Source of the DNA: Escherichia coli
GTDB taxonomy: Bacteria; Pseudomonadota; Gammaproteobacteria; Enterobacterales; Enterobacteriaceae
Direction: 5' to 3' (one strand)
Length of the DNA stretch: 64,000 nt
Assembly (NCBI RefSeq): GCF_011045215.1
Contig: NZ_CP049201.1
Below the pieces are notes generated by a model that worked only from the letters and a program-made list of their open reading frames with translations, was not told the DNA's origin and did no database searches. Positions 27,105 through 27,436 of this stretch are shown here, in pieces (position 1 is the stretch's first letter; each line of letters opens with the position of its first letter). A program made the position numbers and the translations under genes.

Positions 27105-27436
27105 CCCCCACTTTTAAACCTCTATATATACGCAAAAGTGGGGTAAATAGTTAATTTTTAGTTAATACATTGCATTGATTATTTTTTAATCTTCCTATTG
27201 CTTTCATCACATAGTTTTCATTTACCCATCACTACTCATTTTTATTACCCACTTTTTCTATTTCTTACCACGCCAAAAATTGGGATTTTACGAGTTAATA
27301 ATTCATTGTTTTATTTTGAATTTTTCACTCCCCACTTTTTGATGTATATACAGGTGGGAAAGCGGGGAATAACGTTTCAATTTTGTTAAATCCCCCGCTC
27401 TCCCCACTTTTGCTCCCCACTTTTTACAGTGGGCGC
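27105..27436. repeat. repeat cluster of CCCCACTTTT(T) motifs with inverted partners in a low-GC region
   Basis: CCCCCACTTTT 27105, inverted AAAAGTGGGG 27134, CCCACTTTTT about 27249, CCCCACTTTTT 27331, CCCCACTTTT 27403 and 27415; TATATA elements between copies. Confidence 0.55.

What the first reader, a model, noticed from the sequence alone, without database searches (positions are those of the whole stretch)
27105..27436. CCCCACTTTT motif cluster with inverted partners in a low-GC promoter region
At least five direct copies of CCCCACTTTT(T) and inverted AAAAGTGGGG partners flank TATATA elements in the 460-bp region upstream of the ProQ/PerC operon. This looks like a promoter controlled by a multimeric activator or repressor, possibly a helper-phage late activator. 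It is a second repeat system, distinct from the ori iterons 400 bp away.
Basis: seen in the sequence. Interest (0 to 1): 0.5.

Follow-up and report, generated by a model that had tools for sequence, protein, structure and literature searches.

The report
Orphan replication origin of a satellite island
The CCCCACTTTT repeats are most likely not a promoter switch but the binding sites (iterons) of a replication origin of a phage-satellite island, left next to a stub of its initiator gene after that gene was swapped for a different initiator with its own origin.

Summary
Five exact CCCCACTTTT copies, one 1-mismatch copy and several degenerate ones lie in 27105-27436 and nowhere else in 64 kb. No local shuffle comes close.

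The promoter or late-activator reading is not supported. The window is an E. coli PICI-type satellite inserted in yifB. The cluster starts at the stop codon of a truncated 'helicase RepA family' rep gene (27424-27819). It has the known PICI origin layout: direct iterons, an inverted pair around GTATATAC, an AT-rich spacer, then more iterons.

The array follows this rep type whatever gene lies downstream. It is absent from primase-type islands that carry ProQ/PerC, such as EcCICFT073 and strain CI5.

Across about 60 Enterobacterales loci the iteron core TG-N-GG tracks one residue of the Rep C-terminal winged-helix domain: Asn with A, His/Lys with G, Ser with C. This is the only one of 348 alignment columns to do so. 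A near-isogenic E. coli locus with His changed to Asn has every iteron changed to GTGAGG.

In this window the helicase core is missing. It was replaced by a primase-type Pri-Rep with its own GGTAGA origin, so the array is an orphan second origin.

This is a known kind of element. The new details are the likely specificity residue and the stacked origins. No replication or binding was tested.

The parts
27415..27424 (+). Iteron 1 (CCCCACTTTT). In the rep direction it reads CTG-TAA-AAAGTGGGG, and its last base is shared with the stop codon of the rep remnant (27424-27426).
   Evidence: The same position is kept in L001-L004 and in other genera.
27402..27411 (+). Iteron 2, in tandem with iteron 1 (13-bp register).
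   Evidence: The tandem pair recurs 3' of RepA-type rep genes in the viral-collection loci where a rep is visible.
27392..27399 (+). Degenerate copy (CCCCCGCT, a GCGGGG variant). It forms an imperfect inverted repeat with 27356-27370.
   Evidence: (I5).
27358..27367 (-). Inverted iteron (CCCCGCTTTC on the - strand, 2 mismatches). It is the partner of 27330-27339.
   Evidence: I1. Relatives have exact AAAGTGGGG here.
27344..27351 (.). GTATATAC centre between the inverted iterons. It stays constant across genera while the iteron core changes. Inferred to be the melting or helicase-loading site.
27330..27339 (+). Iteron 3 (exact). It is 85 bp from the proximal tandem set and 83 bp from the distal iteron.
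   Evidence: D1 spacings 83 and 85; the same in L001 and L004.
27258..27329 (.). AT-rich spacer (26% GC) between the iteron sets.
27225..27257 (+). Distal iteron set: ACCCACTTTT (27247-27256) plus degenerate ACCCATCACT and ACTCATTTTT.
   Evidence: D3. L001, which has an intact rep, carries a near-identical set.
27106..27143 (.). Outer unit: CCCCACTTTT, then 18 bp containing TATATATA (27123-27130), then AAAAGTGGGG. It belongs to a diverged partial duplication of the origin core (27010-27165 against 27236-27389, 64% identity).
   Evidence: (I1). Present in L001, L097 and L111 but absent from the 200-bp origins of L002-L004.
27037..27061 (.). Inverted repeat TTCCTCAC-N10-GTGAGAA with a GTGAGG-type core, 23 bp upstream of the remnant start codon. 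L001 and L097 have the GTGGGG version at this place.
   Evidence: Function unknown.
27011..27013 (-). Start codon and first four codons (ATGAAAACAGAA) left from a deleted 257-aa accessory gene that is intact in L001 (9070-9843).
27424..27819 (-). Remnant of a helicase-RepA-family rep gene, equal to residues 341-470 (the C-terminal domain). The ORF 27424-27771 (115 aa) starts at an internal Met. His91 is the residue that tracks the iteron core.
   Evidence: PGAP marks the equivalent stretch as a pseudogene in ETEC1732.
27830..28147 (.). Neighbouring primase-type origin with GGTAGA(C/T)A iterons. This is the type that lies in the rep-3' region of EcCICFT073, whose rep-ori replicon was tested experimentally.
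   Evidence: Fillol-Salom 2018 (PMC6092414).
28148..29896 (-). Primase-family Pri-Rep (582 aa). Its N-terminal 142 aa are 88% identical to the N-terminus of the RepA-type Rep of L001.
26131..26957 (-). Downstream ProQ/FinO-family gene (26415-26957) and PerC-family gene (26131-26418).

Best explanation
The cluster is the iteron array of a PICI (phage-inducible chromosomal island) replication origin. It belongs to the origin that pairs with the 'helicase RepA family' (AAA_25) Rep allele.

Inferred mechanism: Rep hexamers bind the G-rich iterons (AAAAGTGGGG in the rep direction) through their C-terminal winged-helix domain. The residue at the N-cap of the recognition helix (K-x-F-x-R-W; His91 of the window ORF) reads the variable base of the TG-N-GG core. 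Iteron sets on both sides of the GTATATAC element and the AT-rich stretch position Rep for melting and self-loading, as in SaPI origins and the EcCICFT073 origin.

In this island the cognate helicase core has been replaced by a primase-type Pri-Rep cassette with its own GGTAGA origin. The CCCCACTTTT origin is therefore orphaned. It can fire only if a RepA-type Rep with His or Lys at that position is supplied in trans.

Shown here: position, architecture, linkage to rep and covariation. Inferred: binding, melting and origin activity.
For: Position and layout
- The array begins at the rep stop codon and has a layout conserved from E. coli to Xenorhabdus, Serratia, Kosakonia and Photorhabdus. The layout is 2-3 direct iterons, an inverted iteron, a (T)GTATATA(C) centre, a direct iteron, an AT-rich spacer, then 2-4 direct iterons.
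- Direct copies are spaced 83 and 85 bp apart in three E. coli loci.
- This matches published descriptions. [quoted passage not shown] SaPI Reps recognise iterons through a C-terminal winged-helix domain (PMC9371898).

Linkage
- In 21 of 22 viral-collection loci with the tandem pair, a RepA-type gene or its C-terminal remnant ends just upstream; only 7 have ProQ.
- Primase-type islands that carry ProQ/PerC or PerC lack the motif and have GGTAGA iterons instead.

Enrichment
- The core occurs at 27.5 per kb in the 250 bp 3' of rep, against 1.41 per kb in the rest of 55 loci.

Covariation
- Asn pairs with TGAGG (20 loci), His/Lys with TGGGG (34) and Ser with TGCGG (5). This is the only one of 348 Rep columns whose residue sets are disjoint between iteron classes.
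- The Asn type arose at least 3 times independently.

Prediction test
- L111 (C-terminal domain 97% identical to L001, but His to Asn) has all iterons as GTGAGG, while its flanks are about 97% identical to the window.
- Yersinia with KNF has GTGAG cores. Raoultella with KHF has TGGGG nine times.

Structure
- The AlphaFold2 model of the 115-aa ORF (pLDDT 83) shows three helices plus a beta wing, with His91 just before the third helix. The weak fold matches are mostly winged-helix DNA binders.

Orphan status
- The window holds only Rep residues 1-142 and 336-470.
Against: - No replication, binding or melting experiment exists for this Rep and iteron pair. Origin function is inferred from position, architecture and covariation.
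- Fold-search E-values are not significant (best 0.034), and there is no PDB sequence homolog.
- Four of about 64 RepA-type loci showed no clear iteron cluster (L062, L065, L066, L068). They were left out of the column test.
- Because rep and the array are adjacent, some covariation is expected from linkage alone. The single-column result and the near-isogenic pair argue against this but do not prove contact.
- The window and L001 arrays are longer (about 410-470 bp) than the canonical 200 bp. They include a duplicated outer unit whose role is unknown.
Confidence: 0.8

Rival explanations
1. One reading: the array is an operator or activator-site cluster of a regulated promoter for the downstream genes (accessory gene, ProQ, PerC), bound by a multimeric regulator, possibly a helper-phage late activator.
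For: - The region is AT-rich, upstream of and co-oriented with ProQ/PerC.
- A sigma-70-like site (TTTAAA, 16-bp spacer, TATATT) at 27118 to 27091 on the coding strand overlaps the outermost iteron.
- The stretch 27010-27105 is about 97% conserved among the window, L097 and L111, and it precedes the accessory gene's start codon.
Against: - Promoter-like sites are at the shuffle expectation, 3 against 2.9.
- The motif is absent upstream of ProQ/PerC in L005 and from the EcCICFT073 island.
- The motif is present 3' of rep where the next gene is an 83-aa ORF, SSB or something else.
- In L002-L004 the last iteron lies about 10 bp from the next start codon, which leaves no room for a separate promoter.
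- No phage record is similar.
- The motif does not track AlpA. It tracks one Rep residue.
Confidence: 0.08
2. Dual use: these are true Rep iterons, but in the hybrid island the retained array and the retained 115-aa C-terminal-domain ORF work as a regulatory or interference module. Possible roles are titrating or blocking the Rep of competing RepA-type islands, or letting this island be replicated by a co-resident island's Rep.
For: - The fragment reading frame is intact in two diverged hybrids, the window and L097.
- The hybrid module occurs in islands at two different attachment sites.
- The window's iterons are as intact as those of L001, which has a full rep.
- Stacked origins recur: L008 has two and L097 has three.
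- Up to 5 places per E. coli genome match the 26900-27500 query, so several related islands can share a cell.
Against: - There is no Shine-Dalgarno sequence before the internal ATG (read directly from the sequence).
- PGAP calls the fragment a pseudogene.
- Stand-alone C-terminal-domain ORFs elsewhere sit in visibly decayed islands.
- Stacked origins are rare, 1 of 54 species loci.
- The hybrid is found in only 5 of 5426 genomes.
- Divergence between the hybrids may have been imported by recombination, so it says nothing about selection.
Confidence: 0.1
3. Packaging signal: the repeats are cosB- or pac-like sites bound by the island's small-terminase-like or Rpp-like protein.
For: The island encodes a TerS/HTH-like 175-aa protein at 23862-24389. 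Repeated sites next to AT-rich DNA resemble lambda cosB in a general way (my own knowledge).
Against: - There is no cosN-like sequence nearby; GGGCGGCGACCT with up to 2 mismatches occurs at chance level and not in the region.
- The array lies about 3 kb from the terS-like gene and abuts rep in every genus.
- It co-varies with a Rep residue.
Confidence: 0.02

Closest known systems
EcCICFT073 replication origin (Gram-negative PICI Pri-Rep/ori; Fillol-Salom et al. 2018, PMC6092414)
   Same: - Same element family: int, alpA, DUF4222, rep, origin, PerC.
- The origin lies immediately 3' of rep, with iteron sets flanking AT-rich DNA and about 85-bp spacing of repeated blocks.
- The window carries this origin type at 27830-28147.
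   Different: - The EcCICFT073 iterons are GGTAGA(C/T)A and its initiator is a primase-family protein.
- The CCCCACTTTT array pairs with a different Rep allele (AAA_25, 'helicase RepA family').
- Only the EcCICFT073 rep-ori replicon was tested experimentally.
- I could not read Fig. 2a of that paper, which lists iteron sequences for several E. coli PICIs, so this iteron may already be drawn there.
SaPI origins and their Rep C-terminal winged-helix domain (SaPI1, SaPIbov1, SaPI5; PMC9371898)
   Same: - A self-loading initiator-helicase whose C-terminal winged-helix domain reads short iterons.
- 6-12 iterons directly downstream of rep, with an AT-rich centre and iterons in opposite orientation on either side.
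- The same layout and a predicted winged-helix C-terminal domain are found here.
   Different: - There is no detectable sequence homology to the SaPI Reps; profile searches against solved structures found nothing.
- The helicase core here is AAA_25/RepA-like, not SF3 or MCM-like.
- The iteron is a longer A-run plus a G-rich core.
- The host is Gram-negative.
Iteron plasmid origins (pPS10 RepA, F RepE, R6K pi)
   Same: Winged-helix initiator domains bind directly repeated iterons next to an AT-rich unwinding element. Initiator and iteron specificity co-vary. This comparison rests on my own knowledge and was not tested here.
   Different: Those initiators are not helicases and they recruit DnaB. 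Here the initiator carries its own helicase core. No DnaA box was looked for. Membership was not tested.

Membership tests
PICI replication origin (Penades/Novick definition) | Located immediately 3' of the replication initiator gene | tested here: met
   The first iteron shares a base with the stop codon of the rep remnant. The same holds in L001-L004 and across genera.
PICI replication origin (Penades/Novick definition) | [quoted passage not shown] | tested here: met
   The sets are proximal 27392-27424, the inverted pair 27330-27367, the spacer 27258-27329 (26% GC) and the distal set 27225-27257.
PICI replication origin (Penades/Novick definition) | Iteron sequence specific to, and co-varying with, the cognate Rep | tested here: met
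   One Rep column (Asn, His/Lys or Ser) partitions iteron classes A, G and C in 59 loci. The near-isogenic pair of window/L001 against L111 shows the same switch.
PICI replication origin (Penades/Novick definition) | Rep plus origin drives autonomous replication, and deleting the origin abolishes it | not testable with these tools
   This needs a plasmid-maintenance or Southern assay like the one done for EcCICFT073.
PICI replication origin (Penades/Novick definition) | A cognate intact Rep is encoded by the same element (a functional replicon in cis) | tested here: not met
   Only Rep residues 1-142 and 336-470 are present in the 64-kb window; the AAA_25 core is absent. The array is therefore an orphan copy of such an origin, not this island's working replicon.
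Gram-negative PICI (host element) | Gene order of int, alpA, rep-origin, then PerC and morphogenesis/packaging genes, all transcribed in one direction, with a dedicated attachment site | tested here: met
   The island is inserted in yifB, and its AlpA is 98% identical to that of EcCICFT073.
   There are 3 sites against 2.9 expected. The motif is absent upstream of ProQ/PerC in L005 and absent from the EcCICFT073 island.
Helper-phage late-activator sites | The same motif occurs in helper-phage late regions | tested here: inconclusive
   No phage record is similar by blastn. All 22 viral-collection hits to the tandem pair lie in PICI-like contexts next to rep. A motif-level scan of phage late promoters was not possible.

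The most novel reading that the evidence does not exclude
Satellite islands may stack origins of different specificity: two here, three in L097, and two in Xenorhabdus L008. They may also keep the iteron-reading C-terminal domain as a small ORF. An island could then be amplified by the Rep of a co-resident island, or it could block that island's origin. This would be replication-level parasitism or interference between satellites. Specificity would be set largely by a single recognition-helix residue, with Asn reading A, His/Lys reading G and Ser reading C.
Probability: 0.12. Interest if true: 0.6.

Novelty: new member of a known kind. Interest (0 to 1): 0.35.

Why it matters
The result re-labels what looked like an unusual regulated promoter as a replication origin, so the ProQ/PerC operon should not be modelled as controlled by this motif.

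It also yields a concrete, testable rule for origin specificity in a widespread Enterobacterales satellite Rep family: one residue paired with one iteron base. The rule could be used to predict which islands can cross-replicate or are incompatible, and to annotate origins automatically.

The hybrid shows how rep-origin cassettes are exchanged between islands and leave orphan origins behind.

Tried and rejected
- Lambda-type cosN (GGGCGGCGACCT, up to 2 mismatches): chance level and not in the region.
- Rfam scan of 26300-28300: only noise, with E of 0.075 or worse and scores far below gathering thresholds.
- blastn of 26958-27830 against 50,697 phage records: no match.
- Sigma-70 and terminator scan: at shuffle expectation.
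- AlpA as the motif reader: rejected. EcCICFT073's AlpA is 98% identical to the window's, yet that island lacks the motif. L003's AlpA is 32% identical, yet that island has the motif.
- A single CCCCACTTCT upstream of alpA (33706-33715) is not matched by a CCTCACTT copy in the roughly 230 bp held upstream of alpA in L004. It is treated as chance.
- PDB sequence search with the C-terminal-domain profile: nothing meaningful. The Foldseek PDB search gave only non-significant winged-helix-like hits.
- The iteron sequences of Fig. 2a and the supplements of Fillol-Salom 2018 could not be read as text. I cannot say whether this exact iteron is already published.
- I did not test whether hybrid-bearing genomes also carry an intact RepA-type island; the search output cannot be filtered by genome.

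Full report
**Observation**

The motif cluster exists as described.
- CCCCACTTTT occurs exactly at 27106, 27330, 27402 and 27415 on the + strand and at 27134 on the - strand.
- ACCCACTTTT occurs at 27247.
- There is no other exact copy in the 64 kb. No whole-window shuffle reached the count with up to 1 mismatch.
- In 2000 local dinucleotide-preserving shuffles, no 10-mer recurred 4 or more times, against 5 observed.
- Degenerate copies lie at 27358-27367, 27392-27399 and 27225-27246.
- Two inverted pairs enclose TATATATA (27123) and GTATATAC (27344).

**Context**

The window is E. coli. Positions from about 23000 to 35300 are a PICI-type phage satellite inserted in yifB, with all genes on the - strand. 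In the direction of transcription the genes and features are:
- integrase (33956-35206)
- alpA (33404-33592)
- antA
- small ORFs, then a DUF4222 gene
- a 582-aa primase-family Pri-Rep (28148-29896)
- GGTAGA-type iterons (27830-28147)
- a 115-aa ORF (27424-27771)
- the AT-rich region in question
- a ProQ/FinO-family gene and a PerC-family gene
- DUF2213-like proteins and a TerS/HTH-like gene

The 115-aa ORF is not a gene in its own right. In frame up to about 27819-27831, it matches residues 336/341-470 of the 470-aa 'helicase RepA family' Rep of related islands at 96-97% identity. The primase's first 142 residues are 88% identical to that same Rep's N-terminus. The AAA_25 helicase core (Pfam match at residues 150-319) is absent from the window.

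So a primase-type cassette, consisting of the helicase/primase body, its stop codon and its own origin, has replaced the middle of a RepA-type rep gene. This hybrid junction is found in only 5 of 5426 complete E. coli genomes, all pig isolates. In one of them the island sits at a different attachment site, and PGAP calls the fragment a pseudogene.

**What the array is linked to**

The array goes with the RepA-type rep, whatever lies downstream.
- Megablast showed that 27321-27500 (the rep 3' end plus three motif copies) is shared with hundreds of the 637 matching genomes, while the ProQ side is conserved separately.
- In islands with an intact RepA-type rep, a 200-bp (L002, L003, L004) or roughly 410-bp (L001) region 3' of rep holds the same array. 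The next gene differs among them: an 83-aa ORF plus SSB, a 257-aa gene plus SSB, or a 257-aa gene plus ProQ.
- Strain CI5 (L005) has a primase-type rep and GGTAGA iterons followed directly by ProQ/PerC, with no CCCCACTT copy anywhere in the locus.
- EcCICFT073 has a primase-type rep with GGTAGA iterons in the rep-3' region, and its rep-ori replicon was shown experimentally to be functional. It lacks the motif.
- A scan of the viral-contig collection for the tandem pair found 22 loci. In 21 of them a RepA-type gene or its C-terminal remnant ends just upstream (the 22nd is cut at the contig end). Only 7 have a ProQ homolog and 11 a PerC homolog.

**Architecture**

I examined 80 loci encoding RepA-type Rep homologs from one-genome-per-species Enterobacterales. 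The roughly 200 bp after the stop codon have one common plan:
- 2-3 direct iterons at or over the stop codon
- one inverted iteron
- a conserved (T)GTATATA(C) centre
- a direct iteron
- about 55 bp of AT-rich DNA
- 2-4 further direct iterons

The iteron core differs by lineage while the TATATA centre stays the same. Direct copies are spaced 83 and 85 bp apart in three E. coli loci, and the primase-type origins show 85-87 bp. The core is about 20-fold enriched in the 250 bp 3' of rep (27.5 against 1.41 per kb).

[quoted passage not shown] It also matches SaPI origins, which are read by the Rep C-terminal winged-helix domain (PMC9371898).

**Which protein reads the array**

- Classifying loci by the commonest TG-N-GG core gives A in 20 loci, G in 34 and C in 5.
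- In an alignment of the last 330 Rep residues (348 columns, 59 loci), exactly one column has residue sets that do not overlap between classes. It is the x of K-x-F-x-R-W, where Asn goes with A, His or Lys with G, and Ser with C.
- Four loci without a clear array (L062, L065, L066, L068) and one with an ambiguous residue were left out.
- The Asn state arose independently at least three times. L004 and L111 each have a His-type nearest relative (93% and 97%) rather than each other (86%). The Yersinia sequence is closest to non-Asn types.

As a prediction test, I looked up stand-alone C-terminal-domain proteins found by a profile search and read the DNA after them.
- L111 is an E. coli locus whose rep 3' region is about 97% identical in DNA to the window, with CAC changed to AAC (His to Asn). 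All its iterons are GTGAGG. The origin core has diverged to roughly 55-60% identity, and identity returns to about 97% further downstream.
- The Yersinia locus (KNF) has GTGAG cores.
- The Raoultella locus (KHF) has TGGGG nine times.
- The Enterobacter remnant (KSF) keeps one GTGCGG.

An AlphaFold2 model of the window ORF (pLDDT 83) shows a beta-hairpin, three helices and a beta wing. His91 immediately precedes the third helix. Foldseek hits are weak (best E 0.034) and are mostly winged-helix DNA binders such as IclR, Fur, DtxR, MarR, LexA and ORC.

It is 98% identical in EcCICFT073, which lacks the motif, and only 32% identical in L003, which has it.

**Extra features of this copy**

- The array in the window (and in L001, L097 and L111) is longer than the canonical 200 bp. 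Positions 27010-27165 are a 64%-identical partial duplication of 27236-27389, and this contributes the outer inverted pair at 27106-27143.
- Downstream of it lies the start codon and four codons of a 257-aa accessory gene that is intact in L001 but deleted here.
- A weak promoter-like site (27118 to 27091) overlaps the outermost iteron. However, promoter-like sites overall are at chance level.
- The window's iterons are no more decayed than those of L001, which has an intact rep. The orphan origin may therefore still respond to a Rep supplied in trans. This is inference only.

**Verdict**

The promoter and late-activator reading is not supported.
- The best explanation (confidence about 0.8) is a RepA-type PICI replication origin, orphaned here by a rep-cassette swap.
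- The kind of element is known. The new details are the candidate single-residue specificity determinant and the stacking of origins. Stacking is seen here, in L097 with three blocks and in L008 with two, but in only 1 of 54 species loci.
- Nothing was tested experimentally.

Noticed in passing
L097 (IMGVR_UViG_2563366820_000001), about 5150-5500: A second, diverged example of the hybrid island carries a third iteron block (GGTAGACAGTTGGTAGAC-type, about 330 bp). It lies between the accessory-gene remnant and the ProQ start. The window lacks this block.
   Followed up: partly
L008 (Xenorhabdus beddingii), 4029-4400: Two complete RepA-type origin modules lie in tandem after one rep gene. The first has GTGAGG iterons, matching its Asn-type Rep. 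The second has GTGGGG iterons.
   Followed up: partly
window 27037-27061: The inverted repeat TTCCTCAC-N10-GTGAGAA just upstream of the remnant start codon has the GTGAGG-type core, as in L111. The window's own origin is GTGGGG-type, and L001 and L097 have TTCCCCAC...GTGGGAA at this spot. Both arms change together, which suggests an extra Rep site or an RNA hairpin in a mosaic segment.
   Followed up: partly
window 28148-29896 and 27424-27831: The primase-type and RepA-type initiators share a homologous N-terminal domain of about 140 aa (88% identical between the window's primase and the L001 Rep). The function of this shared domain is unknown, and it may be where cassette exchange occurs.
   Followed up: partly
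window 33706-33715 (- strand): A single CCCCACTTCT lies upstream of alpA and is also present in L001. No CCTCACTT counterpart occurs in the roughly 230 bp held upstream of alpA in L004. It is probably chance.
   Followed up: partly
window 30765-32558 (- strand): This 597-aa ORF has an odd, low-complexity-like translation and overlaps + strand ORFs (31153-31629, 31699-31878). In related islands this area holds + strand YlcI/YnfO-family genes and no such long gene, so the long ORF is probably spurious.
   Followed up: no
L112/L113 (Yersinia), L114/L115 (Enterobacter), L116-L118 (Raoultella): Stand-alone Rep C-terminal-domain ORFs of 95-130 aa recur in decayed islands. Some are annotated as 'Cro/CI family transcriptional regulator'. 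The Raoultella ORF has a new N-terminal extension, was found on 24 or more contigs, and keeps a full iteron array beside it.
   Followed up: partly
window 25132-25725 and 24396-25067: Two adjacent ORFs (197 and 223 aa) match different parts of one PHROG family (phrog_6216, 545 positions). One is annotated DUF2213 and the other, oddly, as a NUDIX hydrolase in relatives. They may be a split or two-part head-morphogenesis or protease-like protein.
   Followed up: no
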